Below are positions 33,495 to 57,044 of a stretch of DNA of 64,000 bases, one piece after another; positions within the stretch are counted from its first letter, which is position 1; every line of letters begins with the position of its first letter. The notes under the pieces are model-generated. The model did no database searches, was not told where the DNA came from, and saw only the letters and a list, made by a program, of their open reading frames with translations. The position numbers and the translations under genes were made by a program. Source of the DNA: Escherichia coli (GTDB taxonomy: Bacteria > Pseudomonadota > Gammaproteobacteria > Enterobacterales > Enterobacteriaceae); the NCBI GenBank assembly GCA_032372955.1, contig GCA_032372955.1_4725.1; one strand, written 5' to 3'.

Positions 33495-34379
33495 ATGGCT
33501 TCTACACAAATCCGTGCTACCGATCGTATCGTCCGTACGATTATCGGCGGTCAAGTACAAACTAACCTTACGCTCGGTCTTCCTCATGCATGGGAAGAAC
33601 ACAGCACCTTGAATGAAAAGCTTCAGATTCAATCAAAGGTTTACCCCGAGGGTAATCCTGCTGTACGTTACTTCTGTATCGGCAACCAGGGTCACGAATT
33701 CATCCGCAACGCTAACGGTATCCCTTCCTCGATGCCGATCGCTCACGAAGCAAGCGATCTATCACCGTGGAAAATCAAACCTTTCGTAATGCGTGAAGTT
33801 GGTAACGACTTGACCACGGACGAACGCGCTAAATTTGGGTTACGTCGTATTGAGACACTGGAAAGCGGTAAAAAGTATATCTGTTATTACGGTCGTCGCA
33901 TCGATTTCGATAACGTTGTCCGCTCCATGCGTTATACCAAATACGTCGACGGTGTCGCTCAGACCATCGAATGGCATCCAACCGACGCGAACCTCAACCC
34001 CGCCCGACCAGATATTCCAACAACCGGAATTCTGGTAGCGACCGGGGAGTACTACGACTACAGCTGTAAAGTCTCTTTGGTTTGGACGCCATGGGATATT
34101 AACGAATATCTCAATGTGGCTAAACTCACCGAAGGTGGTGAAGAGTACGCGGTTATTTCTGAAATTGGGATGGTCTCTGCGGGCGATAAAATCGTTCGTG
34201 CTGATGATGGTCAAGGTTCGGCCTTCGACATGAACGAAATCGTCGGTGCGCAGGTTACCGATCTGATTTCGACTTACCACAACCTTTATACCACCAACGA
34301 TACGCTGACACTGAAATACGACCTTGGTGCGTTGGAAGCTCGTAAGGCAGGCCCGACGGGCGCAGAAATCCTACCGTAA
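33495..34379 (+). CDS. paralogue family protein, divergent member 3
   Basis: 294-aa ORF, AGGAAAA RBS; weaker motifs YYGRRIDF and LVWTPWD in the same order. Confidence 0.55.
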   Translation: MASTQIRATDRIVRTIIGGQVQTNLTLGLPHAWEEHSTLNEKLQIQSKVYPEGNPAVRYFCIGNQGHEFIRNANGIPSSMPIAHEASDLSPWKIKPFVMREVGNDLTTDERAKFGLRRIETLESGKKYICYYGRRIDFDNVVRSMRYTKYVDGVAQTIEWHPTDANLNPARPDIPTTGILVATGEYYDYSCKVSLVWTPWDINEYLNVAKLTEGGEEYAVISEIGMVSAGDKIVRADDGQGSAFDMNEIVGAQVTDLISTYHNLYTTNDTLTLKYDLGALEARKAGPTGAEILP

Positions 34380-34394
34380 CCTAAGGGGTGTTAA

Positions 34395-35300
34395 ATGGAG
34401 TACAGTGAAATCCTAGGGTTAGAATCGAAAGAAATCCTCTTTCGGCTGATTCGAAAGCATAGCGATTTCGATGCTCGAGGCGTAACGCTGGATAAACTGG
34501 TTATCGGTGAGGCTTCTGAAAGCACAGGGTACAAGCGTAACAGCAAGTTAACCGTGCATCCCCAGCCGGGTTCAGGGCTGGTGAACTCTGTCGACATCTA
34601 TTATAACCGCATCGATCTTGGTAAACTGGGTACTTGGCCTGGCGGACAGCACCACTGGCCCGTCGAGATCGAAACCTTAGATGCGCTAACCAAGGTCTCT
34701 GAGATCCTACCTGTCTTAGCATCGACGTACGGTATCCTTCTCAACAAAACCGAGATTGTCGACGCAGATCTGGATAAGTCCAAGTCACCGATACAGGTTG
34801 TGATAACACCTAAACCCGGTAACCAAGTATGGGTTGGTCAGTTACTTGTCGAGTTAACTTCAGGACATAATGACCTCAACAACCTCGTTCGCAACAATAT
34901 GTTGGCTGGGTTGAATTATATCATCGATCGAGATAGCAGTAAACTCCCGGGCGCTATTGTTTCGTACAACTGGTTCGTATCTGCTGGTGTTCTGGCGTCA
35001 CTTACCGATGGTTATACGTTAACCTCAGGTGATACGCAATCGGAGGCACTAATCGCAGAAATGAACATGCTGCAATTGGGTCTCTCTGAAGAGATCGACG
35101 GCCTTATGGTCAACGATCGCTGGGTATTGTCAGCAATACCTGGACCACTCAACTTGCAGAATGCGAGAGTAATAGCCGATCCAGAGCAATTCAAAACACT
35201 ACCGTTTGGCGTGCGTACGGATGTTAGTAAAGCCGTCGTACTTCAACTTAGTGTGATGAATACGCTCATCGATGGTTATCTAACGCTATATGTAGCATAA
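34395..35300 (+). CDS. paralogue family protein, member 4
   Basis: 301-aa ORF; motifs YYNRIDLG, STYGILLN, VWVGQL. Confidence 0.65.
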   Translation: MEYSEILGLESKEILFRLIRKHSDFDARGVTLDKLVIGEASESTGYKRNSKLTVHPQPGSGLVNSVDIYYNRIDLGKLGTWPGGQHHWPVEIETLDALTKVSEILPVLASTYGILLNKTEIVDADLDKSKSPIQVVITPKPGNQVWVGQLLVELTSGHNDLNNLVRNNMLAGLNYIIDRDSSKLPGAIVSYNWFVSAGVLASLTDGYTLTSGDTQSEALIAEMNMLQLGLSEEIDGLMVNDRWVLSAIPGPLNLQNARVIADPEQFKTLPFGVRTDVSKAVVLQLSVMNTLIDGYLTLYVA

Positions 35301-36736: not shown

Positions 36737-38890
36737 ATGACAGATGAAATTAAACGCCTTCCGTATAACCCGCAGGGGAATTTGGATGGCGCATGGGTTC
36801 CAGAAGAACCCGTCACTGTCCGTCCTTCCACGGGGACCGGATTTAACTTTCTCGTTCCTAAATACGCGCCATATTTTCGTAATGGGTTAAAGATCTACAA
36901 CCCTGAAACAAACGCGTATCTGGAAGAAGGCGTTGACTTTTTATGCACTCACCCCTTCCGTGCCATGGCTGCGCTGACCGGCCTGGAATTATACGGTTCC
37001 ATCATGCTGTTGGACACCGCATTCAGTGGACAGTTGCAACTGAACTACTATTCACTGGGGGGTGAGTTTACACTTGATCAACAACAAATTCTTAACGTTT
37101 TAGCCAACAACCTCTACGACCCCCGCGTTACGTTCTGGGAAAAGGTTGCTGACGTTCCTTCCGTATTCCCGCCAATCAACCACCAACATAATGTCGAAAC
37201 CGACACAATGACGTGGGACGATGTGGTGGCGGCAATCGAATCATTGAAAGAACCGCTTGAAGAAGGGTTCAATAAAGCAATGACCGCATTGCTGCAGCAC
37301 GAGAATCGTCGCGATAACCCCCATGGCGTAACCAAGGCTCAAGTTGGATTGGGGAATGTTCAGAACTTCACAACGGCGACCGAGAGCGATCTGGAAACCA
37401 TCGGTGAAAATCTGTACATGACGTTGGCGATGACGCGTAAGATGATCGCTAACCTGAGTGGTGATAGTGCTGCTGCACACATCAGCAACTACAACAACCC
37501 ACACAAGGTAACTAAAGCCCAGGTGGGACTCGGAAACGTTGAGAACTACGGTACAGCCGATAGTAATGCAACCATTACCGGTACGGCCACAAATCTGTAC
37601 ACAACACCAGCGGGTGTACGTGCGGCAATCAAGGCGATCACGGACGGCTTAAGTACGCGCATCGATCATGTCAACGCTGCGTTAACAACCCATACCGGGG
37701 ATAATAACAACCCTCACGCTGTTACGAAAGCACAGGTAGGACTGGGGGACGTACAGAACTACGGTGTGGCGTCTAATGGGGAAGCCGGTGCAGGTGTTGC
37801 TAACAACAAATACATGACGCCCGCAACCACAGCAGCCGCCATCGCAGCGTTAATCACCCCAACCGTAACCGAACATATCGGTAACACCAACAACCCACAT
37901 GGGGTGACCAAAGCCCAAGTCGGTCTGGGAAGCGTGCAGAACTTTGGGGTTGCTACTACCCAAGAAGCTATCGACGGTCAGGCTAACAACAAGTACATGA
38001 CACCAATACTTGTTCGTTACGCGATCGAGCAAATGGCTGGTCAAGGGTTCAGTAGTCACATCGCAAATACCGAGAACCCGCACCAAGTATCTAAAGCACA
38101 GGTAGGGTTGGGGAGTGTTGAAAACTATCCTGTCGCTTCTGATGTGGAAGCACAAACAGGTGTAGCGACCAACCGCTATATGACACCGGCTGCGACAAAA
38201 GCGGCAATCATCGCTTTAGCGGGTGATGGTTTTGCGGCACACGTTGTCGATAAGAGCAACCCGCATGAAGTAACAAAATCTCAAGTTGGGTTAGGGAACG
38301 TACAGGACTTTGCTGTCGCCACCGACACGCAAGCTGCCGACAAGACTAACCAGACGACGTACATGACACCGTACTCGACTTACAAGTCAATTGCGGCGTT
38401 TGCGGCGTTAGCCGATCATACGCACACAGCCGAACAAGTCGGTGCGCTCCCCATCAATGGGGGTAAGTTAACCGGACCAATCGATCTTTCAGCAACGTCT
38501 ATCACGGGTACCGGACTCGGTATCGATGGTGCTAATGGTTCAATCAACGTCAATAAGTTGACCATCAACCAGCTTCTGGAAGCTTACGGTGGCATTGAAT
38601 CCAGTGATACGATTAAAATCCTGAACGACGATGAGACGCCCGCTAACTTCCTTGCCGATGGCGATCTCGAAGGGATCAAATGGGTTAACATCAACAGCCA
38701 AGAACCTGGAGAGAACCAAGACGGCGAGAAGATGCAGAAGATCGGTAAGCTGAGCGATTACCTTAAGAACGATTATTTAACCAGCTTGAAGACGAACACA
38801 GCGTTCCGTGATGTCTTCCAAGCACTGCTTAGGGAATTCCTTGCTAACTTCAACGCGGTTATCAAAGCAACCGACTTCGAGACGTTATAA
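36737..38890 (+). CDS. tail fibre protein with T4-type repeats
   Basis: 717-aa ORF, AAAGGG RBS; six copies of NPHxVTKAQVGLGNVxNY spaced ~60 aa apart. Confidence 0.8.
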   Translation: MTDEIKRLPYNPQGNLDGAWVPEEPVTVRPSTGTGFNFLVPKYAPYFRNGLKIYNPETNAYLEEGVDFLCTHPFRAMAALTGLELYGSIMLLDTAFSGQLQLNYYSLGGEFTLDQQQILNVLANNLYDPRVTFWEKVADVPSVFPPINHQHNVETDTMTWDDVVAAIESLKEPLEEGFNKAMTALLQHENRRDNPHGVTKAQVGLGNVQNFTTATESDLETIGENLYMTLAMTRKMIANLSGDSAAAHISNYNNPHKVTKAQVGLGNVENYGTADSNATITGTATNLYTTPAGVRAAIKAITDGLSTRIDHVNAALTTHTGDNNNPHAVTKAQVGLGDVQNYGVASNGEAGAGVANNKYMTPATTAAAIAALITPTVTEHIGNTNNPHGVTKAQVGLGSVQNFGVATTQEAIDGQANNKYMTPILVRYAIEQMAGQGFSSHIANTENPHQVSKAQVGLGSVENYPVASDVEAQTGVATNRYMTPAATKAAIIALAGDGFAAHVVDKSNPHEVTKSQVGLGNVQDFAVATDTQAADKTNQTTYMTPYSTYKSIAAFAALADHTHTAEQVGALPINGGKLTGPIDLSATSITGTGLGIDGANGSINVNKLTINQLLEAYGGIESSDTIKILNDDETPANFLADGDLEGIKWVNINSQEPGENQDGEKMQKIGKLSDYLKNDYLTSLKTNTAFRDVFQALLREFLANFNAVIKATDFETL

Positions 38891-38895
38891 CGGAT

Positions 38896-38932
38896 GGGTG
38901 GGTTCTACCCACCTTTCCTTCTTTTTATTTTT
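38896..38932 (+). terminator. rho-independent terminator after tail-fibre gene
   Basis: GGGTGGG-TTCTA-CCCACC followed by TTTCCTTCTTTTTATTTTT. Confidence 0.6.
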
Positions 38933-38947
38933 CGATAGGATGTGAAA

Positions 38948-39457
38948 ATGGGCACAAAAATGAGTGAATTGGGTGCTCGCATGACGGCATGGTACGCAAG
39001 GAAGGATAACCCTAACCAAGTCACCGCAGCACAAATCGACGCACCCGATAAAAACACGATCGATACGAGAATCGGCAAAAAGCTCCCTAAGGGGATACTC
39101 CCCGTAGCGTATTTCGGTGATTGTACTGATATCCGTAGCGAACGCATCAGCAACGTTACCGCCAGCGGTACGGTAATCTCGTATCCTGAAATACCCGTCA
39201 TGATCGCCGGTACCGACTATATTCTGGCGAAGGGAACGCTAGACATCAAAAAACTTACTTCCGACTGGGCGAACAAAACCGGTTATCTTTTCATTCGTCA
39301 GAAAGACGGATCGATCGATTGGATCTGGCAGAGTAGTGCTGGGGTCGATACGTCAACAGCAATTCGCGTCGGGCAGGTGAGCTGTAACGCAACAGGAATC
39401 ACTTCGGTGGTCTTTAACAAAGTCTTCATCCTCGGCCAAAAACGTTACATGGGGTAA
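38948..39457 (+). CDS. tail-fibre-associated protein
   Basis: Start chosen at ATG 38948 (AGGA RBS); N-terminal NPNQVTAAQIDAPDK resembles the fibre repeat. Confidence 0.5.
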   Translation: MGTKMSELGARMTAWYARKDNPNQVTAAQIDAPDKNTIDTRIGKKLPKGILPVAYFGDCTDIRSERISNVTASGTVISYPEIPVMIAGTDYILAKGTLDIKKLTSDWANKTGYLFIRQKDGSIDWIWQSSAGVDTSTAIRVGQVSCNATGITSVVFNKVFILGQKRYMG

Positions 39458-39461
39458 CCGC

Positions 39462-39947
39462 ATGAAGCTATCAACACTGCTTTCTGAATGGGGGACGTAT
39501 CTTACCCAAAAGAACCCTCACGAGGTAACGCCAACACAAACAGATGTCTACGTTAAGACCGAAGTGGCTTCTAAACTTGCACCGCTTGTTACCCAGTGTT
39601 ACCTTCCCTTTCTTTTTTTCAGTCGCGATCGTATCGTACCGTCTGGTTCTTACAACAACGGAAGAATAAGTTTGTCGGAAGGTGTTGCCGAATACAATAC
39701 CAAAGAGGGTGTTGTTCCTGCAACGACGTTGGATGTGTCTGGTGTAAGTGAATCTGTTGGCTGGGTTTATCTTGCTGTCACCGATAGCGGTTTCGCCTAT
39801 ACGTTAACGGATAGCAACAGTAGTTACAAAAACGTGATGCGTATCGGGACATGGAACAAAGTTCAGGGTACCGTGCACCTCGCGGCAACACGTAAGATCG
39901 GCACCGTTGAAATCGACGACGGACAGCTTCCTGACTCGCCTATTTAA
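39462..39947 (+). CDS. tail-fibre-associated protein
   Basis: 161-aa ORF; N-terminal KNPHEVTPTQTDV motif; follows previous gene by 4 nt. Confidence 0.5.
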   Translation: MKLSTLLSEWGTYLTQKNPHEVTPTQTDVYVKTEVASKLAPLVTQCYLPFLFFSRDRIVPSGSYNNGRISLSEGVAEYNTKEGVVPATTLDVSGVSESVGWVYLAVTDSGFAYTLTDSNSSYKNVMRIGTWNKVQGTVHLAATRKIGTVEIDDGQLPDSPI

Positions 39948-39959
39948 TCGAGGTGAATA

Positions 39960-42563
39960 ATGGCAATGAAAAAGTTCAGCGAACTGGTGAATAGCGTTAC
40001 TACGCGTATCGCCAGTCGCAACAATCCAACAGGACTAAACGCGAGCGATCTCGGTGCCTACAGTACCGCTGAGTTCAACACTGAGATGGAAAAATACATC
40101 GATATTGGCGTAACCGATATCGAACAGGTTGGGGACCAAAGTTATTTTCCTCTGGCAATCGAAGGCTCCGCTGACGGTGCTATCTCCCTAAACGACAGAT
40201 ACCGTCGTTACGGCGTATGTCGTGAATCAGACGGTACTATCGTGTTATTGCGTTCAGCAACGAACAGCGTAAAGAAAGGGGTTTACTACGTTATCTGTAA
40301 AACAGATCAAAACGGGCAAATCACCGAAGTTATCCCAACCAGTCGTCGTTATGAACCCGCGACGCTCGACCGTATTCCTACGGCGATATACTGTCACCAG
40401 AACGGTATCATGTTAGGTCAAGCTGCTTTTGAAGACGGTAGCAGCCCTAAAATGTTTATCGCGTTGACAGACGGAACGTTTGACGCATCCAAACATGTCG
40501 CCATGTATCTTGATGGTAGTCTTGCCAACTTTGTTGATACATCACCGCATATCTGCTGTTGGGAAATTAACGGTAAAATCTACATCGCTATCGCTGGCAC
40601 TAACAGTTATAAACTCTACTTAAATGTTTATACCGTAACTAAATCTTCCATCGGTCCCAGCGGTGGCAGCGTAGCGGCTACGCAGCTTACGAATATTAGC
40701 GGTAGAACGATAGAAGGAACAGCGATAAGCAACAGTGCCGAGATGATTGTCTGCAACCGCATATCTGCGAACGATTTCCCTTCTGACGGGATCGGTCAAA
40801 TCGTCTGGCGCGCTCAGATTCGTCTGCATGCGGCAACCAAAGGCACGAAAGCACGTATTCTGATTGCTTCGTCGTGGTGGACAAACAACCGCAAAAATCA
40901 GCAAAAGAACGGGGTACATCAGTTCTATCTGGATTTTGAAACCACCAACAACAGTTATAGCATGAATCCAGGCGCTGGACAATCCACGTACGTGTCAACC
41001 GATAGCGGAATAGACTGGGTAGGACCTTCCAACACAACGGCGGGGACAAGCGGGTATAACGACGGTTTCTGGCAGTGGGGTTCGGGTAACAGTACGGGAA
41101 ATATTGAAATCGATGAACGTGGTCAAGTCGCTGTGATTCAAAACGACAACTTATCCGCTCCCTACGCACGATCGTACACTATCAGAGGTTTCTCTGGAAA
41201 CGTGTTTGACGAACTTGCCAAACTTGGTCCAACCAGTGGAATACAGCACGACTCAAACTGGAAAAGCGTTGACGATCGTGTCGTTGGTGCACTTGCGTCC
41301 CATGGTTACCTGGGTTTCTTTGCTAAAAACAAGGTTTTCGTTAACTCGCGTACGGCTGGTGGGCAAGGTAATTTCGAAGCCCGTTTGGTGACTTACGATT
41401 GGAACCTTAGCTATCGTTATCGAGGTGAGGGTATAGACGTTTACGGTTTTCCACCTTCCAACAACGTGGTGGTTAGCGCAGGTCAACTATCGCGACCTTT
41501 CCTAACCGTACATTTAAGCGATGACAATACGGTAGTTAGCGGGTCTTATTTAACTGATTCAAACTTATCCGGTAAAATCGGATACGACGCCACCAAACTC
41601 GCACCTTCCGGTGAAGACATCAGTATAACCGCAGCCAACCTGCAAGCGGGCGGACAGCTCGTGTGGAACGCGTATACTGGAACCAAGGTGTCTGGTGTTA
41701 GTCAGTGGCAGCATGCGTTAGCCGTACCTCCAGATGGTACAAACGCACCCTGTATTCTGTTTGTTGCTGGCTGTAATAACAGCACGCGCGTACATGGACG
41801 AATCGCTGCGGAAGTTACCGTATCCGCACGTAAAGGTGCTATTACGGTGACGGGCGTAACCAAACTGCTGGGTTATGTCGAGGAAGCCGATACAACAACT
41901 ATCGGTAGTCAGTATGCTGCCTGGGGTGCATTAGCTTACAAGAAGGTGAGTGATGGATGGCTTGTTGCGGGACATGTTCCGTACTCCCGTCAGTCTGCAG
42001 GGAACCAGAACACCTATCAGTTCCGAGCTGGACGACAAAACGATGGGAACTGGACAACCATCGCATTTGAAGGTATGTATGCTTACCTACAGACAAGCGG
42101 CTGGCGCTGGAACGTGCATCCGGTGTGGGGAATCGGTTATGTTGATACCGCAGTCTCTACGGTGATGGGTAATGGCGGTCAAGTCTTTAGCGCTGTCGGT
42201 AATTCCGTTGCGGAATATAAAGCTCTCGCTGTTAAAAACCGTTACATGGTTTCTACGGTCGTTGCTGCTTCCGGTTACGATATCTACATCAACGAAGACA
42301 TCACTTGCTTGTTTGCCGGTAAAGTCATGACCCTACCTAAAGGCCATTATAACCTAAAAGACTATAATAGCTCACCAGGTAATAAAACATGGTACGTTTC
42401 CGTTGTTCCTAATGGCGACCAGTTAGAACTGGAGTTAACCATCTACAAGCAAGAGGATGATAAAGGACAGCGCGTTAATATCGGAACGATTACGACCAGC
42501 GATACCCAGATCTCTGTCATTAATCTCAATAAGACAACCAAATTAGGTACAGTCACGTTATAA
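39960..42563 (+). CDS. large tail fibre/tail spike protein
   Basis: 867-aa ORF, GAGGTGA RBS; N-terminal NNPTGLNASDLGAYS adaptor-like motif; sits within fibre module. Confidence 0.6.
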   Translation: MAMKKFSELVNSVTTRIASRNNPTGLNASDLGAYSTAEFNTEMEKYIDIGVTDIEQVGDQSYFPLAIEGSADGAISLNDRYRRYGVCRESDGTIVLLRSATNSVKKGVYYVICKTDQNGQITEVIPTSRRYEPATLDRIPTAIYCHQNGIMLGQAAFEDGSSPKMFIALTDGTFDASKHVAMYLDGSLANFVDTSPHICCWEINGKIYIAIAGTNSYKLYLNVYTVTKSSIGPSGGSVAATQLTNISGRTIEGTAISNSAEMIVCNRISANDFPSDGIGQIVWRAQIRLHAATKGTKARILIASSWWTNNRKNQQKNGVHQFYLDFETTNNSYSMNPGAGQSTYVSTDSGIDWVGPSNTTAGTSGYNDGFWQWGSGNSTGNIEIDERGQVAVIQNDNLSAPYARSYTIRGFSGNVFDELAKLGPTSGIQHDSNWKSVDDRVVGALASHGYLGFFAKNKVFVNSRTAGGQGNFEARLVTYDWNLSYRYRGEGIDVYGFPPSNNVVVSAGQLSRPFLTVHLSDDNTVVSGSYLTDSNLSGKIGYDATKLAPSGEDISITAANLQAGGQLVWNAYTGTKVSGVSQWQHALAVPPDGTNAPCILFVAGCNNSTRVHGRIAAEVTVSARKGAITVTGVTKLLGYVEEADTTTIGSQYAAWGALAYKKVSDGWLVAGHVPYSRQSAGNQNTYQFRAGRQNDGNWTTIAFEGMYAYLQTSGWRWNVHPVWGIGYVDTAVSTVMGNGGQVFSAVGNSVAEYKALAVKNRYMVSTVVAASGYDIYINEDITCLFAGKVMTLPKGHYNLKDYNSSPGNKTWYVSVVPNGDQLELELTIYKQEDDKGQRVNIGTITTSDTQISVINLNKTTKLGTVTL

Positions 42564-42576
42564 GGACCTCCAGGTT

Positions 42577-44625
42577 ATGTCGACACCAATTACCCTGAAG
42601 TACCCCGAGGACTGGACCGGTACACTCGCCAGCAACCACATCGTTGGTGAAGAGCATACCGTTCCACGAACCGAGAATAAATGTTACGCCCTTGATGGCG
42701 GACCGTTCTTCACCGAAAGTCTGGTCATCACTGAAAAGCTTACCGGTAAGACACTGGTACGAGGCGTGGATTATAAACCCATTTTCTTGTATCAGGATGC
42801 AACGCTTTACGCAGGTAAAGAAATCTGTGCAGCCATCGCCATCATCAACGATGATATCGAGGGGACATTAGTTAACGACTATTGTATCATCGGTGGTGTT
42901 TACGTAAGTCTTATTGACGCGTTATATCAGGCTATCGAAGAACTCAAACTTGACGATCGTCCGATCAACTGGGACGACATCAAGAACAAACCGGAACTTT
43001 ATCCGCCTGAACCACACATCCACCACGTTAGCGCCATCTACGGTACCGAACATCTTTGCTTAGCGATCTATTCACTGAAAGCCGCAATACTTATCGGTGA
43101 TGCTGCGTCCGATAACCGTCTCTGGGCAGCAATCGATCAGTTACGCAAAGACATGCAAGCAGCGGATAAAGATCTGACCGATCTGCATTACGCTCACGCT
43201 AACCGTACCGATAACCCGCACGAAACCACAAAAGCCCAAGTCGGACTAGGTAACGTACAGAACTATCCTACCGCAAACAAGGCGGAGGCAGAAGCCGGTA
43301 CTGCACCTGACCGATACATGACCGCACAAACGGTTGGTTGGGCGATTGCTAAACTGGCGGGCGATCTAGTCGATGCGCACGCTAACCGTCGGGATAACCC
43401 GCACAGCGTCACCAAAGCGCAGGTTAACCTTGGGAACGTTGATAACTTCCCGACCGCTTCGGATGATGAGGCGAAAGCCGGGACAGCGAACAACCGTTTC
43501 ATGACGCCGCTACGTACCGTTGCCGCGATCGAACAGTTCGCGTTGATTCCACTTAACGCGCATAAAGCCGATTATAACAACCCACACAGGGTAACGAAAG
43601 CCCAGGTGGGATTAGGGAATGTGCAAGACTATCCGATGGCTTCTGAAGAAGAAGCGCGTGCCGGTGTTGCAGCTAACCGATTAATGGCACCGAACACAAC
43701 CAAAGCGTCCATTGAGACCTTTGCGTTAGTTCCGCTTAATGCACACATCGCTGACAAGAATAACCCACACCAAGTGTCTAAAGCACAAGTAGGGTTAGGA
43801 AGTGTTGAGAACTACCCAACCGCTAACCAAGCTGAGGCGCAAGGTGGTTCTGCGACGAACCGTTACATGACGCCACAGTCTACCAACTGGGCAATTCAGA
43901 AATTAGCGGGTGATCTGGTTAACGCTCACGCTAACCGTCGAGACAACCCGCACGCTGTTACGAAAGCGCAGGTAGGGTTAGGGAACGTACAGAACTATGG
44001 TATCGCTTCCGATGCGCATGCGCAGCAAGATGTTAACACCGTGTATTCTACACCACGTAACGCCCGTCTCGCTGCAACGCACATCATCGACACACGCTTG
44101 TTCTGGGGTTCTTACAGCGGAAACAAACTGGTCTTCGTTGATGGTAATGGTGGTACGCGTTTAGGTAAACATGTCATCATCACGGAGAATGGCGGCGGTG
44201 AGATCACACGCTTCTATTGGGGGAACTCTGCGGGCGGTGGTAGTGCGCTATACTTCAACAGCAATATCGATGTTCCTAACGCTTACATTCGCTCGGATGA
44301 GCGTAGTAAACACGACATCCGTTATCTGAAAGACCATCCAGAATCTCTCAGTGAACGTTTACGTGAAATGGCGCGCAATGGGCTTGCCCGCTTCCGTCAC
44401 AACTACGATCCTGATGTCGAGAAGATCGGTGTTATCGCACAGCGTGTTCAAGAACAGTTCCCTGAAATGATCAACGTATCAGATAAAGGACTGTTAAGTC
44501 TTGACACCATGGTGTATAGCGGGGTTCTGTTAGGCGGTTGGTACGAACACGACCAACAGCTTCGTGCTCTGCGTGCAATGGTTGAAGAAATTGCACATCA
44601 CGTGAAAGGAACCAAGGGTATTTAA
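42577..44625 (+). CDS. tail fibre protein with C-terminal S74-type intramolecular chaperone
   Basis: 682-aa ORF; eight NPHxVTKAQVGLGNV repeats; last 110 aa begin SDERSKHDIRYL and contain IGVIAQRVQEQFPEM. Confidence 0.8.
   Translation: MSTPITLKYPEDWTGTLASNHIVGEEHTVPRTENKCYALDGGPFFTESLVITEKLTGKTLVRGVDYKPIFLYQDATLYAGKEICAAIAIINDDIEGTLVNDYCIIGGVYVSLIDALYQAIEELKLDDRPINWDDIKNKPELYPPEPHIHHVSAIYGTEHLCLAIYSLKAAILIGDAASDNRLWAAIDQLRKDMQAADKDLTDLHYAHANRTDNPHETTKAQVGLGNVQNYPTANKAEAEAGTAPDRYMTAQTVGWAIAKLAGDLVDAHANRRDNPHSVTKAQVNLGNVDNFPTASDDEAKAGTANNRFMTPLRTVAAIEQFALIPLNAHKADYNNPHRVTKAQVGLGNVQDYPMASEEEARAGVAANRLMAPNTTKASIETFALVPLNAHIADKNNPHQVSKAQVGLGSVENYPTANQAEAQGGSATNRYMTPQSTNWAIQKLAGDLVNAHANRRDNPHAVTKAQVGLGNVQNYGIASDAHAQQDVNTVYSTPRNARLAATHIIDTRLFWGSYSGNKLVFVDGNGGTRLGKHVIITENGGGEITRFYWGNSAGGGSALYFNSNIDVPNAYIRSDERSKHDIRYLKDHPESLSERLREMARNGLARFRHNYDPDVEKIGVIAQRVQEQFPEMINVSDKGLLSLDTMVYSGVLLGGWYEHDQQLRALRAMVEEIAHHVKGTKGI
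44293..44622 (+). other. S74-type autoproteolytic intramolecular-chaperone domain
   Basis: Residues 573-682 of the 42577 ORF; Ser of SDERSK would be the autocleavage nucleophile by analogy with endosialidase/T5 L-shaped fibre domains. Confidence 0.6.
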
Positions 44626-44752: not shown

Positions 44753-45388
44753 ATGGCTAAGATTACTGAAAAAGATTTTACCTGCGAATTCATCATTCGC
44801 GACAAAACCGATGTTGAAGGTGGGTATATTGATGACCCGGATGACAGCGGGAAATGTACAAACCACGGCATCACGCAAGCGCTTGCTAATCAATACAAAA
44901 CCACGCTGAAAACGAAATTCGGCTGGAACGGTAACATGCGTAACCTTACCACGGAAATGGCGTTCTTTATCTACAAGACTCATTTCTGGGATAAGATGAA
45001 GCTTGACGAAGTCATGAAACGTTCTGTGTTCTTAGCTGACCGTCTCTTTGACCTGGGTATCAATGCAGGTAAAACGGTTGCGGTTAAGAACCTTCAGCGT
45101 TACCTGAACGTCATGAACAACCGTCAAACTTACTGGAAAGATATCAACGCCGACGGTTTGATGGGACCTGCGACGTTAGGCGTACTCGACGCTTACATCG
45201 CTAAACGCGGAGAAACCGGTAAAGATTATCTCATCGACGCGATGCTAGATATGCAGAGCACTTACTACATCGAATTAGCTGAACGTCGTGAGAAAGACGA
45301 GAAGTTCATTTACGGTTGGCAGGCACGTAAACGTCGTGAGCGTAAGCGTTATGAAGCGATCATCTTGAACGGGTTCAGTGCTGAGTAA
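44753..45388 (+). CDS. endolysin, GH108-type muramidase with peptidoglycan-binding C-terminus
   Basis: 211-aa ORF, GAGGAG RBS; N-terminal EGGYIDDPDDSGKCTNHGIT matches the GH108 motif. Confidence 0.75.
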   Translation: MAKITEKDFTCEFIIRDKTDVEGGYIDDPDDSGKCTNHGITQALANQYKTTLKTKFGWNGNMRNLTTEMAFFIYKTHFWDKMKLDEVMKRSVFLADRLFDLGINAGKTVAVKNLQRYLNVMNNRQTYWKDINADGLMGPATLGVLDAYIAKRGETGKDYLIDAMLDMQSTYYIELAERREKDEKFIYGWQARKRRERKRYEAIILNGFSAE

Positions 45389-45451
45389 AACCCTGCCGTA
45401 AACCGTCATAAAACGCTCCAGAACGAACGGAACGCATAAAGACGTATAAGA

Positions 45452-45483
45452 CCCCTCCTCACCCAATAACGGATGAGGAGGGG
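45452..45483 (+). terminator. CCTCC-armed hairpin with different loop
   Basis: CCCCTCCTCA-CCCAATAACGGA-TGAGGAGGGG, perfect 10-bp stem after the endolysin gene. Confidence 0.45.
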
Positions 45484-45631
45484 CTTAACAGGTGTTCGTG
45501 TTTATTCAGGTTGGTCTGGGTCCCTGGCCGCTTGAGGAGATCCACAACCCTTTCAACACCACGCTTCATACGAAGCGCTCAATGAGAAAGATAAGCGTGC
45601 AACCACGCAGATTGTTACAACCAAATTGTAG

Positions 45632-45678
45632 AAGAGCAATAGCCGAGCTGTACAAAACCCATACTATTGCTCTTTATG
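45632..45678. terminator. hairpin followed by TATG at the 3' end of the - strand abundant gene
   Basis: AAGAGCAATAG ... CTATTGCTCTT (11-bp stem, 21-nt loop) then TATGCTT. Confidence 0.4.
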
Positions 45679-45682
45679 CTTA

Positions 45683-46225
45683 TTAGCCAACAACGCTAAC
45701 GGTCGGTTTCACGAAGCCATCAGCTACGTTATCCGCCAGAACGGTTGCCAGGTCATCTTTCGGTGCAGCTGCGTAGGTCAGTGCAACCTGCAGAGTGCCG
45801 GTATATACCAGGCCATTCTCGATCGCATTCAGAGTTACCTGACCAACAGTACCTGCAGACAGCTGGAAGGTTTCTTCATTGATTTCACCGGTCAGGGAAG
45901 CCAGACCGAATTTGGTGACCAGCTTGCTTACCAGCTCGGAAGCCTTAATGCTGTCGGTACCGTGCGGCAGTTCGAAAGTAACATCGCCAGTTACATCAGC
46001 GAAAACTTCGGACAGAGCCAGACGATCGTAGTAGAACTGCTGAGTACCCTGCAGGTTAGCTGCTTCAGCTGCAGCATCCAGCTGAATAACGGTGTTCTTT
46101 TCATGTTCGGAAGACGTCTGCGGAGTACCGAACTGCAGTTCTTCTTCGGTCAGCGTGCGGGTTGCTTTGGTGTTGATAAGATCAAGCAGAAGGGATTTCG
46201 CTGCTTTGTTAAAGTCTAAGGCCAT
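45683..46225 (-). CDS. abundant small protein, short member of the YYDR/LxYTG paralogue family
   Basis: Start chosen at internal ATG (MALDFNK) with GAGGACA RBS; high-expression codon usage like the capsid gene; motifs FYYDRLAL, TKFGLASLT, LVYTGTLQV. Confidence 0.65.
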   Translation of the reverse strand: MALDFNKAAKSLLLDLINTKATRTLTEEELQFGTPQTSSEHEKNTVIQLDAAAEAANLQGTQQFYYDRLALSEVFADVTGDVTFELPHGTDSIKASELVSKLVTKFGLASLTGEINEETFQLSAGTVGQVTLNAIENGLVYTGTLQVALTYAAAPKDDLATVLADNVADGFVKPTVSVVG

Positions 46226-46366
46226 GATAATGTGTCCTCTGATTTTTGATGGTCGAAAAGGAGATTCGGAGTCGTTCTCCATAATATTTACATTAATATA
46301 AAATATATTAATTTCTGTAAACACTTACATCTTTTGAGAGTGATGTAACAACCATAGAGGTAGAAA

Positions 46367-47260
46367 ATGGCAACTCAAGTTTCGCTTACTTTAAAAACAC
46401 CTTGGCAACTTATCGTTGATGAGATTAACAAACTCAACGCCGACACTGGTGCCAGCTTCCAATACACCGACCTTAAATACGTTCTTAAAGAAAAGAATCC
46501 TTCTGCTCCAGAAGCAACTTTAACGCTTAGCCCTGGTGATGGTACCCCTTACTTCAATAACCGTGATGTTACCTACCATCGTCTGGATCTGGCTAAATGG
46601 TTCCAGAAAATCGCTGTACGTGTTAACGTTACTGCTGACACCACCATCGGTGATGTGGTTGACCTTGTAGCTCAACGCTACGGTATGATCACACCGACCG
46701 GTGAGAAGTTCCTGGATAAAGATAAAGACATCAAAGCCGATACGTTATCTAATCCGGTTACCTTCAACGAGCATGGTATCCAGACGATCACCCTGGAAGC
46801 TAAAGAAGATTCGTTGGCGTGGTACGGCTCTGTTCAAGTTAAAGTTTATAACACCACGCTGGATCTGGCTAACATCATCAAGGTTACCAATCTGGGTAAC
46901 TTAACCTACGTTGATGAAGGCGACGGCACCAAAACGTCAGCACGTCTGTTAACCTATCCGTTAGACTTCAGTACTTACACCGCAGGTTTACAAGCTATTA
47001 CCAGCAACGATACCAAGATCGATGCAGGCTTAGCAGGTAACCTGACTACCCTGATCAAAGAGCAGACTGGTGTAAGTGATGATATCATCAATGAACTGAA
47101 AACCAATCTGCAAACAGCTACCTTTGTCTATAACGGTGCTACCACCGGGTCTACTGACAAAGGTGTTAACGCTACGTACAGCAATGTGCTGGTGCTGTCG
47201 TTAGCTGACGGTACTCACACCTACGGTAAAGCAGTATTCGGTTATAACGTTTCCGAATAA
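46367..47260 (+). CDS. paralogue family protein, member 5
   Basis: 297-aa ORF, AGAGG RBS; motifs VTYHRLDLA, QRYGMITP, LAWYGSVQV; divergent from the 45683 gene. Confidence 0.65.
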   Translation: MATQVSLTLKTPWQLIVDEINKLNADTGASFQYTDLKYVLKEKNPSAPEATLTLSPGDGTPYFNNRDVTYHRLDLAKWFQKIAVRVNVTADTTIGDVVDLVAQRYGMITPTGEKFLDKDKDIKADTLSNPVTFNEHGIQTITLEAKEDSLAWYGSVQVKVYNTTLDLANIIKVTNLGNLTYVDEGDGTKTSARLLTYPLDFSTYTAGLQAITSNDTKIDAGLAGNLTTLIKEQTGVSDDIINELKTNLQTATFVYNGATTGSTDKGVNATYSNVLVLSLADGTHTYGKAVFGYNVSE

Positions 47261-47308: not shown

Positions 47309-48097
47309 TTTATGTTTGTGATTATTCTTCTCTTTTATAATTTCTAATGATAAGATTAAGTACCTGGAGTAAAAGTTTACAGATGTTGTAAATGTATTTG
47401 GAAAGTAAAATTTCCACGACCTCGGCCCCTTCGGGGGACGGGGGAGGAGCGAAGTCCTTTAGAGACGAGCAACAGGATAACTCTAAGAAAAAGAAAAACT
47501 AAACGAGCGAAGCGAGTTTATGTTTTTATCCTTAGAGTTATCAAGCTATAAGCGTAGCGTTAGCGTATAACGGTTATGTCGTATACGAATGCAATGAGTA
47601 TAGACGAGATACTCTGATGAACAACGTGAAGAAGAGTATCACAAATGTTTTTTGAGTTATCCGGATTTAACTAGCATGTAACGAAGTGTAATGCACAGAT
47701 GACATGTGTTACCGTTAAGGTAGTAAACACATGTTATCCATTGTTTTGAAGATAAGCTTATTAACTTACTTTTAAATCAATTTAAATATACAAACAACTT
47801 AAACATACCAAGATAAAACAATTGAACCTAAGATAAACAAGATAACTTAGACAATACACTTTTAACGAATACAGATAACATCTTACTTAAATCAAAATAC
47901 CTATCCTCGTTTACCTTCCTTGCTTGCAACACCTCTTCTAAATCCATCCCTTCTTAAGAAACAACAAAACCCTTACTGTAACACAAATCCTTTCACGACT
48001 ATATTACCTAAGTGATGCGTACGTACGATGTTCGTATTGCGTCAAATAGAACTCAATACGTTGTTTAATTAACGTGAAAAACAGAGGAACTTTTTAA
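47309..48097. other. 789-bp AT-rich non-coding region with inverted and direct repeats
   Basis: No ORF of 60 aa or more; 12-bp inverted repeat 47476-47487 / 47531-47542; five AGATAA copies 47750-47880; direct repeat CTTACTT(TT)AAATCAA at 47765 and 47882. Confidence 0.6.
48000..48015 (+). promoter_or_regulatory. conserved promoter-like motif TATATTACCTAAGTGA (copy C)
   Basis: Preceded by TTTCACGAC as in copy D; ~80 nt upstream of the 48098 gene cluster. Confidence 0.45.
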
Positions 48098-48880
48098 ATG
48101 AACGATGAAATCATTTTTGATACCATGTTTACTGGAGATGAATACCTGGCGTTACCGAGCGATGTTCAAAACGAATGCGTGAAGGTAGCATGCTACAGCG
48201 GCGGTCAGGCTGGGATGCGTGTACGTTGCGTTGACGGGACGAACGGGAAAGTTGTTTGGCGTGGTGCTCACACGTACCCTTACCTGCTTACCGGCAACAA
48301 GAATTGGTACGCTCATCGCAGCCAGCATCCTGCACGGATGAGCGCGAGCGGATTCGTGGTACGTGGTGCGTTGGATGAACGGGTGGAACGCATCGAGATC
48401 ACCGATCGCGCGTTCATCGATCAGCTTGCACAGGTTGCTTACGATGAGGGACGTGCAACAGGGCGATACGGTTGGTTGAAGGTGAACAGCGATACGCAAT
48501 TACAGGTAGGATTCCATCACGCGCTTCCTGGGTGGGCGAACCATACCGTTGGAACGTATTACACCAAAAAGCTTACCATGGTGAAACCTTACATGGCGGA
48601 TGCGAGCTTGGAGGCAACGGATCAGATGCATCAATTGCTTCGCATGTATTATCCACGGGTGGTGCATCCACTTGGGTTCGCTTGGGTCAGCGAAGTGCGC
48701 TACAACCCACGCAAGAAACGCGTTGAAGCGAAGGTGCTTAACGAACGTTGGTTACCGGTTGTGCAACCAGGGCTTGACGATGAATCCATCATGATGCGGG
48801 TAAGCCGAAGCCGGTTCGTACAATGGGATGCTACCATGCTACAACGCCCACAACACGTTACAGGAGAAACGTTCGCATGA
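48098..48880 (+). CDS. hypothetical protein
   Basis: 260-aa ORF, AGAGGAA RBS; first gene after the AT-rich region and promoter-like motif. Confidence 0.6.
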   Translation: MNDEIIFDTMFTGDEYLALPSDVQNECVKVACYSGGQAGMRVRCVDGTNGKVVWRGAHTYPYLLTGNKNWYAHRSQHPARMSASGFVVRGALDERVERIEITDRAFIDQLAQVAYDEGRATGRYGWLKVNSDTQLQVGFHHALPGWANHTVGTYYTKKLTMVKPYMADASLEATDQMHQLLRMYYPRVVHPLGFAWVSEVRYNPRKKRVEAKVLNERWLPVVQPGLDDESIMMRVSRSRFVQWDATMLQRPQHVTGETFA

Positions 48881-49176
48881 TACGCGCAACAGGATACGAA
48901 AACAAAGGCAAGAACAGCGTGCAGCGTTACGTTGCCGACGAGGAAGGGAAAGCAGAATACCTGGATTGGTTCAACCGTTACAGCGCAAGCAAGGTACGTG
49001 ATCCTAGCATCCTGAGGTTACAGAGCAGTTTCCAATGGCAGGCTTCCGAACAACGCTGGTACATCACGTTGGAAATCGGAACGGTACGGGAAGACCAGCT
49101 TCCTGCATACTTAAAAGAACAACGGGAGCAGATCAACACATTACTCGCACAACACAAAACGGAACCTAAACCTTAA
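48877..49176 (+). CDS. hypothetical protein
   Basis: Start chosen at ATG 48877 (CAGGAGAAA RBS), ATGA overlap with upstream stop. Confidence 0.5.
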   Translation: MIRATGYENKGKNSVQRYVADEEGKAEYLDWFNRYSASKVRDPSILRLQSSFQWQASEQRWYITLEIGTVREDQLPAYLKEQREQINTLLAQHKTEPKP

Positions 49177-49977: not shown

Positions 49978-50089
49978 CGCATCAACATCACCCGCCTGTA
50001 CCTCATCGTGTTCGGGCGGGGCAATAAGAAACCAAGGGGACATCGCCGTCCCCGTTACTATCATCAACCACTATCAAGAGGAACCTACC

Positions 50090-50533
50090 ATGGAAATTAA
50101 ATTCTGTAAATCGATCGCGATTGTACCTGAACAACCTGCGGATGATCTCGAAAAGCTCGATCATCCCACACTGCAACATGCGCTGGAACGTTTAGCCTCT
50201 TTTGCGCCGTTAGAGAATCATCTTCACTGCGTTAATCTTGAAGCATCCGACTTCGACGTGAAGCTTGGGTTCGTGTTTTCACAAACGGGGAAGGATGTGT
50301 TAGAAAACATATTCTGGTCTGCTGAGCATAAGGCGAGAAATGTGATGACGAAGTTAGTTTATAACGTTAGCCTTAGTGAAGACGGCACCTATTGGACGTC
50401 AGAGGCTTGCTGGACGATTTCTGCGATTTCACGAATGGACAAAATACACTATTTGCATCGTGTTGCTGATAGCATTGTACACCAACTGGATCGTTTTGAT
50501 ACCACCCGCTTATCGAATGGAACACAGTGTTAA
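50090..50533 (+). CDS. hypothetical protein
   Basis: 147-aa ORF, AGAGGAA RBS. Confidence 0.55.
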   Translation: MEIKFCKSIAIVPEQPADDLEKLDHPTLQHALERLASFAPLENHLHCVNLEASDFDVKLGFVFSQTGKDVLENIFWSAEHKARNVMTKLVYNVSLSEDGTYWTSEACWTISAISRMDKIHYLHRVADSIVHQLDRFDTTRLSNGTQC

Positions 50534-50548
50534 TACGAGGAATCGAAC

Positions 50549-50977: not shown

Positions 50978-50978
50978 T

Positions 50979-57012: not shown

Positions 57013-57044
57013 CAACTCGTACAAAACCCAAGAAGGAAAACGTT

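What the first reader, a model, noticed from the sequence alone, without database searches (positions are those of the whole stretch)
36737..44625. Tail-fibre genes share near-identical repeat segments, suggesting intragenomic recombination
Both long fibre genes (36737-38890 and 42577-44625) carry the NPHxVTKAQVGLGNV repeat (six and eight copies). One unit, ENPHQVSKAQVGLGSVENYP, is encoded by about 86 percent identical DNA in both genes (near 38072-38128 and 43762-43818). Two short ORFs between them (38948, 39462) begin with truncated versions of the same motif. Repeat-mediated exchange between fibre genes is a plausible host-range diversification mechanism.
Basis: seen in the sequence. Interest (0 to 1): 0.45.

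Follow-up and report, generated by a model that had tools for sequence, protein, structure and literature searches.

The report
Mosaic tail-fibre module, Goslar-like phage
Two paralogous tail-fibre genes of a Goslar-like jumbo phage share a 61-residue shaft repeat whose DNA resemblance is mostly what protein conservation alone would give; the module diversifies by swapping blocks with related phages, not by exchange between the two genes, which is ordinary for phage fibres.

Summary
The window is a Goslar-like E. coli jumbo phage (95.7% identical to vB_EcoM_Goslar). The two fibre genes are real (orthologues of virion proteins gp029 and gp025). Gene A has six repeats as stated; gene B has five, not eight.

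The A5/B4 core is 50/60 nt identical (83%; 87% over NPH..NY). Identical amino acids plus codon usage already predict 73%, and unrelated phages (Streptococcus EJ-1, Erwinia MM7) hit the same core at 78-82%. Whole units are 39-67% identical. Megablast finds nothing between the genes, they share no 20-mer, and TRF does not see the arrays.

Ten Goslar-like modules all keep 6 and 5 units, in the same order, with no A/B chimeras. Recombination is still real, but of another kind. The module is a patchwork of allelic blocks exchanged between related phages (gene A 37615-38563, s2 39608-40080, the middle of the 867-aa gene), with 8-10-fold higher dS and low dN/dS. The breakpoints lie outside the conserved cores.

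Short ectopic conversion patches between cores do occur in relatives (Goslar A1/A3 44 nt, L005 A6/B5 28 nt). In the window, a B4-to-A5 patch is only suggested.

Ordinary fibre mosaicism; low interest.

The parts
36737..38890 (+). Fibre gene A (717 aa), orthologue of Goslar gp029. It has an N-terminal domain shared with gene B, six 61-aa shaft repeats, and a C-terminal domain of its own.
   Evidence: ORF. Colinear with Goslar gp029. BLASTP against gene B E = 3e-93. PHROG tail and virion-structural families. gp029 was detected in Goslar virions by mass spectrometry.
37298..38422 (+). Repeat array of gene A. Units: A1 37298-37480, A2 37478-37660 (followed by a 30-nt extension), A3 37691-37873, A4 37874-38056, A5 38057-38239, A6 38240-38422.
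   Evidence: Regex and HMM give six domains with i-E 1e-20 to 4e-23. Unit-to-unit identity matrix.
38072..38131 (+).
   Evidence: 50/60 nt identical to the B4 core. The codon-resampling null expects 44.1 +/- 2.6.
38084..38109 (+). Candidate short B4-to-A5 gene-conversion patch, suggestive only.
   Evidence: Window-private substitutions cluster here and match B4. 'VSKAQ' is unique to the window among ten A5 orthologues.
37615..38563 (+). Allelic block in gene A of L009/L006 type, set within Goslar-type flanks. It is an inter-phage recombination import spanning the end of A2 to 140 nt past A6.
   Evidence: 134 of 155 informative sites inside are L009-like and 63 of 70 outside are L007/Goslar-like. 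Chi-square 120 against a permutation maximum of 19.5. The repeat segment tested (A2-A6, 37478-38422), which overlaps most of the block, has dS 0.81 against about 0.08 in the flanks, with dN/dS 0.07.
38948..39457 (+). s1 (169 aa from the ATG; an upstream GTG at 38942 is possible), orthologue of Goslar gp028. It starts with a conserved N-terminal half-repeat (..WYARKDNPNQVTAAQ..).
   Evidence: ORF. Unit HMM E = 0.0012. Homologous N-terminus with s2 and with the 867-aa gene. Present in the Goslar virion mass spectrometry.
39462..39947 (+). s2 (161 aa), orthologue of Goslar gp027. The N-terminal half-repeat (..YLTQKNPHEVTPTQ..) is conserved. The distal part occurs as two diverged alleles.
   Evidence: The window allele is 95-97% identical to L012 and only 70-80% to the other modules compared over this stretch, Goslar included.
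39608..40080 (+). Allelic block of L012 type covering most of s2 and the start of the next gene.
   Evidence: 89 of 96 informative sites are L012-like inside, and 209 of 223 are Goslar-like outside. Chi-square 229 against a permutation maximum of 25.8. dS 0.73 for s2.
39960..42563 (+). 'big' (867 aa), orthologue of Goslar gp026. The N-terminal ~60 aa are conserved and contain a degenerate half-motif (..RIASRNNPTGLNASDLG..). The central part is variable.
   Evidence: phrog_3573 covers residues 26-864, and the same PHROG also matches the N-terminal and first-repeat region of A and B. The central block 40847-41426 is partly L005-like. The L011 allele is only 50% identical in protein beyond residue 60. 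Present in the virion mass spectrometry.
42577..44625 (+). Fibre gene B (682 aa), orthologue of Goslar gp025. It has an N-terminal domain paralogous to that of A, five shaft repeats, a glycine-rich tip and a C-terminal S74 intramolecular chaperone.
   Evidence: Mass spectrometry lists it as 'Tail fiber (HOV27_gp025)'.
43195..44109 (+). Repeat array of gene B. Units: B1 43195-43377, B2 43378-43560, B3 43561-43743, B4 43744-43926, B5 43927-44109.
   Evidence: Regex and HMM give five domains. dS against Goslar is 0.23 and dN/dS 0.03.
43759..43818 (+). B4 core (NNPHQVSKAQVGLGSVENYP), the partner of the A5 core. Its protein sequence is invariant in all eight modules that include gene B.
44293..44469 (+). 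Peptidase_S74 (endosialidase-type intramolecular chaperone) domain of gene B, residues 573-631.
   Evidence: Pfam PF13884, E = 1.5e-5, 25.6 bits against a cutoff of 22. A weak sequence match to the phage S16 gp37 tip, 6f45, covers the same region.

Best explanation
The region is the tail-fibre module of a Goslar-like (Goslarvirus, chimallivirus) jumbo phage. It holds two old paralogous fibre genes, A and B. Each has a shaft built from a 61-residue unit: a strongly conserved extended core, H-x5-NPHxVTKAQVGLGNVxN, followed by a short helix and a ~21-residue helix.

The DNA resemblance between units of the two genes comes from purifying selection on that core plus codon bias, not from recent exchange.

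Diversification works differently. Related phages that co-infect exchange allelic blocks of the module by homologous recombination in conserved flanks. This replaces the distal shaft units of A, the distal part of s2, the centre of the 867-aa protein and, in relatives, s1, the whole 867-aa protein or the tip of B. The N-terminal anchors stay conserved.

On top of this, occasional short-patch (20-44 nt) ectopic gene conversion homogenises individual repeat cores within and between A and B. These patches are almost silent and do not move specificity.

Shown: the anatomy, the constraint-level DNA similarity, the fixed copy number, the block mosaicism, and the conversion patches in relatives. Inferred: that the swapped parts determine host range, and that co-infection is the setting for the exchange.
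For: Identity and expression:
- The window is 95.7% identical to Goslar over 63 kb, and the module is the largest low-identity cluster in it.
- All five gene products are in purified Goslar virions.

Constraint explains the A/B similarity:
- Unit identities are 39-67% at the DNA level.
- The A5-B4 core matches at 50/60 against a null of 44.1 +/- 2.6, family-wise P 0.074.
- The longest exact run between units in the window is 18 nt, family-wise P 0.32-0.63.
- Megablast gives 0 HSPs and no 20-mer is shared. TRF sees no array.
- The same core is hit at 78-82% DNA identity in Streptococcus phage EJ-1, Erwinia MM7-like phages and phiKZ-like Pseudomonas phages.
- The repeat occurs in more than 25 PHROG families and in prophage-like proteins of Streptococcus and Enterococcus.

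Block exchange between phages:
- dS against Goslar is 0.08-0.12 in the background but 0.81, 0.73 and 0.63 in three blocks, with dN/dS 0.07-0.16.
- The nearest neighbour of the window switches among ten genomes: Goslar/L007, then L009/L006, then Goslar, then L012, then Goslar, then L005.
- Two-breakpoint chi-square values are 120, 229 and 41 against permutation maxima of 19.5, 25.8 and 17.1.
- The N-terminal 55-60 aa of s1, s2 and 'big' stay 84-95% identical where the rest drops to 50-77%.

Short conversion patches:
- Goslar A1/A3 share a 44-nt exact run (P < 0.001), L010 A1/A3 29 nt (P 0.005) and L005 A6/B5 28 nt (P 0.006), all under a conservative position-specific codon null.
Against: - The codon-resampling nulls are only approximations. 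The A3-B5 core in the window (52/60, family-wise P 0.0045) and the A5 'VSKAQ' patch show that some A-B similarity in the window may exceed constraint.
- The source of the window is unknown. If it is a metagenome co-assembly, some of its mosaic junctions could be assembly chimeras. However, its blocks match no sampled genome exactly, and the same kind of mosaic is seen between the isolate Goslar and independent assemblies.
- No experiment links the swapped blocks to host range. The fibres are unresolved in the Goslar cryo-EM map.
Confidence: 0.75

Rival explanations
1. The shared repeats act as homology for recombination between genes A and B within one genome. This would produce chimeric or resized fibres and so diversify host range.
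For: - Short inter-genic conversion patches exist in the clade: L005 A6/B5, 28 nt with an N-to-D change.
- There is a suggestive B4-to-A5 patch in the window.
- A5-B4 is the most similar inter-gene unit pair, at 70% aa and 67% nt.
- The best blastn HSP between the genes is A5-A6 against B4-B5, 282 nt at 68%.
Against: - There are no indels and no unit reshuffling in gene A or gene B in any of ten modules.
- The longest shared exact word in the window is 18 nt, below the roughly 25-30 nt usually needed for efficient homologous recombination (own knowledge), and no 20-mer is shared.
- Overall, derived bases match paralogous units no more often than ancestral bases do: 0.319 against 0.332.
- All patches lie in the conserved core and are nearly silent.
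- The breakpoints of the real block exchanges lie outside the cores.
Confidence: 0.1
2. The divergent blocks reflect locally accelerated evolution, through positive selection or targeted mutagenesis such as a diversity-generating retroelement, rather than recombination.
For: The divergent blocks fall in fibre and receptor-binding candidates, where diversifying selection is expected.
Against: - The excess divergence is mainly synonymous: dS is 8-10-fold higher and dN/dS is 0.07-0.16.
- Each divergent block in the window has a 91-97% match in another lineage, giving incompatible tree topologies along the module.
- There is no near-identical template/variable repeat pair in the module, and the A5/B4 mismatches show no adenine bias.
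Confidence: 0.03
3. The mosaic pattern of the window is an artefact of co-assembling several related strains into one contig.
For: The origin of the window is unknown. Eight of the nine comparison sequences are metagenome or IMG/VR assemblies.
Against: - The window's blocks are only 91-97% identical to their nearest sampled relatives, so they are not spliced from those genomes.
- The isolate genome Goslar shows the same kind of mosaic against independent assemblies. Its divergent A4-A6 allele is shared with L007.
- All reading frames are intact across the junctions.
Confidence: 0.05

Closest known systems
Escherichia phage vB_EcoM_Goslar gp025-gp029 (Goslarvirus; NC_048170)
   Same: - Same five genes, in the same order and with the same lengths. 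The module is 92.7% identical at the DNA level without indels in the coding regions.
- Same repeat numbers, 6 and 5.
- All five products are present in Goslar virions, and gp25 and gp29 are labelled tail fibre.
   Different: - Three blocks carry diverged alleles: A2-end to A6, s2, and the centre of gp026 (dS 0.6-0.8).
- Goslar carries an A1/A3 44-nt conversion tract that the window lacks.
- The window carries 'VSKAQ' in A5, which Goslar lacks.
T-even phage long-tail-fibre genes 37/38, where conserved motifs (His boxes, glycine-rich motifs) flank hypervariable segments and serve as recombination points (Tetart et al. 1996, 1998; own knowledge, not checked here)
   Same: - A conserved His-containing motif is repeated along a fibre gene.
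- The fibre locus is mosaic between related phages.
   Different: - Here the breakpoints do not coincide with the motifs.
- No duplication or deletion of units is seen in ten genomes.
- Motif DNA identity between paralogous units is at constraint level.
- There is no sequence homology to gp37 apart from the S74-type C-terminus.
Tail fibres and spikes with a C-terminal Peptidase_S74 intramolecular chaperone (endosialidase, T5 pb1 and S16 gp37 type)
   Same: Gene B has a PF13884 domain above the gathering threshold at residues 573-631, preceded by a glycine-rich tip. There is a weak match to the S16 gp37 tip, 6f45.
   Different: - Gene A lacks this domain.
- Autocleavage was not tested.
- The shaft repeat is unrelated to those fibres by sequence.
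Widespread 'YomR-like' NPH-x-VTKAQVGLGNV shaft repeat of phage tail-fibre and tail-collar-fibre proteins (PHROGs 2163, 13857, 11029, 25620, 2712 and others)
   Same: The repeat has the same core and a similar ~55-61-residue period. It occurs in phages of Erwinia, Pseudomonas, Serratia, Streptococcus and Enterococcus.
   Different: - No Pfam or NCBIfam model matched it.
- No solved structure was found by sequence. Foldseek gave only weak hits to the T4 gp12 and gp34 shafts and to a Klebsiella phage KP1 baseplate chain.

Membership tests
Goslarvirus fibre module (gp025-gp029 orthologues) | Colinear gene order and high nucleotide identity to Goslar gp029-gp025 | tested here: met
   One 7889-nt HSP at 92.7% identity, with identical gene lengths. 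The whole window is 95.7% identical to Goslar.
Goslarvirus fibre module (gp025-gp029 orthologues) | The products are virion components | not testable with these tools
   Shown for Goslar itself by mass spectrometry. Inferred for the window by orthology.
Peptidase_S74 intramolecular-chaperone fibres | PF13884 domain at the C-terminus, above the gathering score | tested here: met
   Gene B residues 573-631, 25.6 bits against a cutoff of 22, E = 1.5e-5. Gene A has no hit.
Peptidase_S74 intramolecular-chaperone fibres | Autoproteolytic release of the chaperone after trimer folding | not testable with these tools
   This needs biochemistry or peptide mapping of the mature protein.
Motif-mediated fibre recombination of the T-even His-box / GRM type | Recombination breakpoints coincide with the repeated conserved motifs | tested here: not met
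   The window's breakpoints lie at 37606-37615 (A2 offset 128-137, variable half) and 38563-38593 (140-170 nt past the array).
Motif-mediated fibre recombination of the T-even His-box / GRM type | Unit duplications, deletions or shuffling among relatives | tested here: not met
   No indels in gene A or gene B in the ten modules. All have 6 and 5 units in register.
Ectopic gene conversion between paralogous repeats (concerted evolution) | Exact-match tracts between paralogous units that are longer than amino-acid identity plus codon usage allow | tested here: inconclusive
   Not met in the window: maximum 18 nt, family-wise P 0.32-0.63. Met in relatives: Goslar 44 nt, L010 29 nt, L005 28 nt, family-wise P <= 0.006. 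The window's A5 patch is suggestive only, P 0.006-0.04.
Diversity-generating retroelement | A template/variable repeat pair of near-identical DNA with adenine-specific mismatches | tested here: not met
   No near-identical direct repeat in the module. The best repeats are 60-90% identical over 29-127 nt and correspond to the protein repeat. Mismatches are not adenine-specific.
Diversity-generating retroelement | A reverse transcriptase gene nearby | not tested
   Only nine ORFs around the module were scanned against Pfam, and none is a reverse transcriptase. The rest of the window was not scanned.
Invertible fibre-gene segments (Cin / Min / Gin shufflon type) | Inverted crossover sites flanking alternative fibre C-termini on opposite strands | tested here: not met
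   Only chance-level inverted repeats of 18-26 nt at 73-89% complementarity, one of which lies just downstream of the endolysin gene. All five genes are on the same strand.
Pfam / NCBIfam tail-fibre repeat families | A significant match of the 61-aa unit to a curated repeat model | tested here: not met
   No Pfam or NCBIfam hit to the repeat region at E <= 0.01.

The most novel reading that the evidence does not exclude
The five genes may encode one composite, branched fibre apparatus.

The three low-copy virion proteins are s1, s2 and the 867-aa protein. They are about 1:1:1 in Goslar virions and roughly six-fold rarer than A and B. All begin with a conserved ~55-residue anchor that imitates the first half of the A/B shaft unit (helix end plus NP[HNT]x[VL][TN]xxQ).

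They could dock onto, or co-fold with, the repeat shafts through this motif mimicry, possibly as a heterotrimeric pseudo-unit. Distal cassettes could then be swapped between phages without disturbing assembly. Under this reading the repeat core doubles as an assembly code and as an occasional gene-conversion substrate.
Probability: 0.2. Interest if true: 0.5.

Novelty: new member of a known kind. Interest (0 to 1): 0.25.

Why it matters
It corrects a tempting inference: short stretches of 83-87% DNA identity between repeats in two fibre genes need not mean recent exchange. For Goslar-like chimalliviruses, whose fibres are still unresolved by cryo-EM, it also gives a usable map. The map separates the parts of the five-gene fibre module that are fixed (N-terminal anchors, repeat number) from the parts that circulate as alleles (distal shaft of gp029, gp027, centre of gp026, gp028, tip of gp025). 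This is a practical guide for host-range engineering and for interpreting future structures. Conceptually it is standard tail-fibre mosaicism.

Tried and rejected
- Tandem Repeats Finder on the module found only two trivial 9-10-nt repeats. The 183-nt arrays are too diverged at the DNA level.
- Megablast of A against B gave no HSP.
- Pfam and NCBIfam have no model for the repeat.
- The PDB sequence search gave only a spurious archaeal L18e match for A and a weak S16 gp37 / collar-fibre match for B.
- Foldseek of a confident AF2 model of three units (pLDDT 91) against the PDB gave only weak, low-TM hits to T4 gp12 and gp34 and to a Klebsiella phage KP1 baseplate chain, so no structural family could be assigned.
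- A literature search for the motif string returned only unrelated papers.
- A DGR was rejected because there is no TR/VR pair.
- An invertible segment was rejected because there are no inverted crossover sites.
- Positive selection as the cause of the divergent blocks was rejected because of low dN/dS and high dS.
- A global test for gene conversion, asking whether derived bases match paralogues more than ancestral bases do, was negative: 0.319 against 0.332.
- My first 'exact-match tract' extension was flawed because it did not check internal non-private sites. Only run lengths are used.
- The first, genome-wide codon null called 7 of 10 genomes significant. A stricter position-specific null reduced this to 3 of 10, and the stricter figure is the one reported.

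Full report
**What the region is.** The 64-kb window is 95.7% identical over 63,065 nt to Escherichia phage vB_EcoM_Goslar, a nucleus-forming jumbo phage of genus Goslarvirus. The finding covers five same-strand genes, colinear with Goslar gp029 to gp025:
- gene A, 36737-38890 (717 aa)
- s1, 38948-39457
- s2, 39462-39947
- an 867-aa gene ('big'), 39960-42563
- gene B, 42577-44625 (682 aa)

The GH108 endolysin follows at 44753-45388. A 2026 preprint on the Goslar virion could not resolve the peripheral baseplate or the fibres. It did detect gp25 and gp29 by mass spectrometry and calls them likely fibre components. Its supplementary table also lists gp026, gp027 and gp028. These three are at roughly equal estimated copy number, about six-fold below gp025 and gp029.

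**Checking the observation.** Gene A carries six copies of the NPHxVTKxQVGLGxV motif. Gene B carries five, not eight. A regex and a profile HMM built from the units agree, and no other ORF in the window carries the motif. The period is 61 residues (183 nt).

A and B are paralogues throughout their N-terminal domains and shafts (BLASTP E = 3e-93). Only B ends in a Peptidase_S74 intramolecular chaperone.

The flagged pair is unit A5 (ENPHQVSKAQVGLGSVENYP) and unit B4 (NNPHQVSKAQVGLGSVENYP). In the correct register, 38072-38131 against 43759-43818, the DNA is 50/60 identical (83%), or 47/54 (87%) over NPH..NY.

Three intervening ORFs, not two, begin with a degenerate half-motif:
- s1 matches the unit HMM at E = 0.0012 and s2 at E = 0.089.
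- The N-terminal ~55 residues of s1, s2 and the 867-aa protein are mutually homologous (E = 3e-7 and 5e-4).

**Is the DNA similarity more than protein constraint?** Mostly not.
- Whole units are 39-67% identical at the DNA level. A5-B4 is the highest pair, at 67% nt and 70% aa.
- Megablast finds nothing between the genes. The best sensitive-blastn HSP is 282 nt at 68%. Core hits are 50-67 nt at 85-86%. The longest shared word is 18 nt and no 20-mer is shared.
- TRF does not recognise the arrays.
- With amino-acid sequences fixed and synonymous codons resampled from the phage's own usage, A5-B4 is expected to match at 44.1 +/- 2.6 of 60 positions. The observed 50 has P = 0.02 for that pair and 0.074 family-wise. 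A3-B5 (52/60) is the only pair that stands out, at family-wise P 0.0045.
- The longest exact run between any two units in the window (18 nt) is unremarkable under both the genome-wide and a stricter position-specific codon null (P 0.32 and 0.63).
- As an independent control, the same core is hit at 78-82% DNA identity in Streptococcus phage EJ-1, Erwinia MM7-like phages and phiKZ-like Pseudomonas phages. The window phage cannot have recently recombined with these.
- The repeat is spread over more than 25 PHROG families and occurs in proteins of Streptococcus and Enterococcus genomes.

**What relatives show.** I collected nine further Goslar-like modules: Goslar itself, two IMG/VR contigs and six metagenome contigs. 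I aligned them with the window. Three results follow.

1. Copy number is fixed. No module has any indel in gene A or gene B. All keep six and five units in the same order, with no A/B chimeras.

2. The module is a clear patchwork of alleles exchanged between lineages.
   - Against Goslar, dS is 0.08-0.12 in most segments. It is 0.81 across A2-A6, 0.73 in s2 and 0.63 in residues 251-580 of the 867-aa protein, with dN/dS 0.07-0.16.
   - The window's nearest relative changes along the module:

     | Stretch of the window | Nearest relative |
     |---|---|
     | up to ~37606 | Goslar/L007 type |
     | 37615-38563 | L009/L006 type |
     | then | Goslar type |
     | 39608-40080 (s2) | L012 type, 95-97%; other modules 70-80% |
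     | then | Goslar type |
     | 40847-41426 | partly L005-like |

   - Two-breakpoint chi-square tests give 120, 229 and 41 against permutation maxima of 19.5, 25.8 and 17.1.
   - The breakpoints in gene A fall in the variable half of A2 and 140-170 nt beyond the array, not in the conserved cores.
   - Other lineages carry diverged alleles of s1 (L012), of almost the whole 867-aa gene (L011) and of the tip of B (L008).
   - The first 55-60 residues of s1, s2 and the 867-aa protein stay 84-95% identical while the remainder drops to 50-77%. This is the usual layout of a conserved anchor with an exchangeable distal part.

3. Short ectopic conversion between repeat cores does happen in the clade.
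   - Goslar's A1 and A3 cores share a 44-nt exact run. Six of its seven core differences from the window's A1 are private to Goslar in the four-genome comparison, all seven match its own A3, and all are synonymous.
   - Goslar and its close relative L007 carry matching variants in both units (CAC/GCG against CAT/GCT), a sign of concerted evolution.
   - L010 A1/A3 share 29 nt.
   - L005 A6/B5 share 28 nt, including an N-to-D change found in no other B5. This one is an inter-genic event.
   - Under the conservative null these three have family-wise P <= 0.006. The other seven genomes, the window included, have none.

**The flagged pair in the window.** Among ten A5 orthologues only the window has 'VSKAQ', which is identical to the invariant B4. 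Its private substitutions cluster at 38084-38109 and match B4.
- In the four-genome set, 7 of 9 private sites match B4 and five consecutive ones lie within 15 nt. Binomial P is about 0.006 for this pre-specified pair.
- In the ten-genome set, 4 of 5 match (P = 0.04).
- The tract still differs from B4 at two internal sites.

I rate a short B4-to-A5 conversion as plausible (about 0.6) but unproven. Globally, derived bases match paralogous units no more often than ancestral bases do (0.319 against 0.332), so conversion is sporadic rather than pervasive.

**Mechanism.** The best-supported account has three parts:
1. A and B are old paralogues whose shaft unit is under strong purifying selection in its core.
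2. Host-range-relevant variation enters by homologous recombination between co-infecting Goslar-like phages, which replaces allelic blocks distal to conserved anchors.
3. Rare 20-44-nt conversion patches homogenise individual cores within and between A and B, with almost no effect on the protein.

Parts 1 and 3, and the mosaic pattern in part 2, are shown. The link to host range and the co-infection setting are inferred. Goslar encodes RuvC- and SbcC-like proteins (annotation), so phage-borne recombination functions are available. Their involvement is an inference.

**Structure.** An AF2 model of units B2-B4 is confident (pLDDT 91). Each unit is an extended conserved segment followed by a short helix and a ~21-residue helix. 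Foldseek against the PDB gives only weak hits to the T4 gp12 and gp34 shafts and to a Klebsiella phage KP1 baseplate chain. PDB sequence searches give nothing useful for the repeat. Pfam and NCBIfam have no model that matches it.

**Comparison with known systems.** The phenomenon is classical tail-fibre mosaicism. Two of its defining features were tested here and not met: breakpoints at the motifs, and unit duplication or deletion. DGR and invertible-segment mechanisms are excluded for the module. Assembly chimerism of the window cannot be excluded without reads but is unlikely.

**Verdict.** The real diversification mechanism is allelic block exchange between related phages. This is a new member of a known kind, and interest is low (0.25).

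The most novel reading not excluded concerns the three low-copy proteins. They may dock on the A/B shafts through their N-terminal half-repeat and so form a composite fibre (probability about 0.2).

Noticed in passing
window 38948-42563 (s1, s2, 867-aa gene); Goslar gp028, gp027, gp026: In the Goslar virion mass-spectrometry table the three proteins have nearly equal estimated copy numbers (about 8.5-22 per virion). This is roughly six-fold below gp029 and gp025 (about 50-136). All three share a conserved N-terminal ~55-aa segment containing a half-repeat, which hints at a stoichiometric accessory complex on the fibres.
   Followed up: partly
L011 (ERZ1026903 contig) region aligned to window 40200-42200; L012 aligned to 38990-39450; L008 aligned to 44030-44270: Other Goslar-like lineages carry strongly diverged alleles: almost the whole 867-aa gene (45-55% nt identity), s1 (68-77%) and the distal tip of gene B (79%). 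Each component of the module therefore circulates as a cassette.
   Followed up: partly
L005 (IMGVR_UViG_3300045988_173921), units orthologous to window 38282-38309 (A6) and 43969-43996 (B5): B5 of this relative carries a 28-nt exact copy of its own A6 core, including a unique N-to-D change. This is the clearest inter-gene conversion patch in the clade.
   Followed up: yes
L001 (Goslar), units orthologous to window 37316-37359 (A1) and 37709-37752 (A3): Goslar has a 44-nt exact match between its A1 and A3 cores. Goslar and L007 each carry the same variant pair in both units (CAC/GCG against CAT/GCT), which indicates concerted evolution.
   Followed up: yes
window 6001-7000, 45001-46000, 48001-49000, 50001-51000, 57001-58000: These are further islands of low identity to Goslar (85.9-92.1%, against about 96-98% elsewhere). 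By position, those at 48-51 kb fall among the small hypothetical genes gp016-gp021.
   Followed up: no
window 33495-35300 and 45683-47260: The neighbours of the module are DUF7208 and DUF7941 proteins and the orthologues of Goslar gp023 and gp022. The Goslar preprint proposes that its DUF7941 proteins, with gp22 and gp23 as worked examples, form a long 'fibre cloud' on the baseplate. The fibre module thus sits inside a larger host-recognition gene cluster.
   Followed up: no
window 63066-64000: The window runs about 935 nt past position 1 of the linear Goslar record, so the two records are differently permuted or oriented.
   Followed up: no
window 43378-43926 (units B2-B4): The AF2 model is confident (pLDDT 91). 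The 61-aa unit is an extended conserved loop plus a short helix plus a ~21-residue helix. No curated domain model or close solved structure exists for this very widespread fibre repeat.
   Followed up: partly
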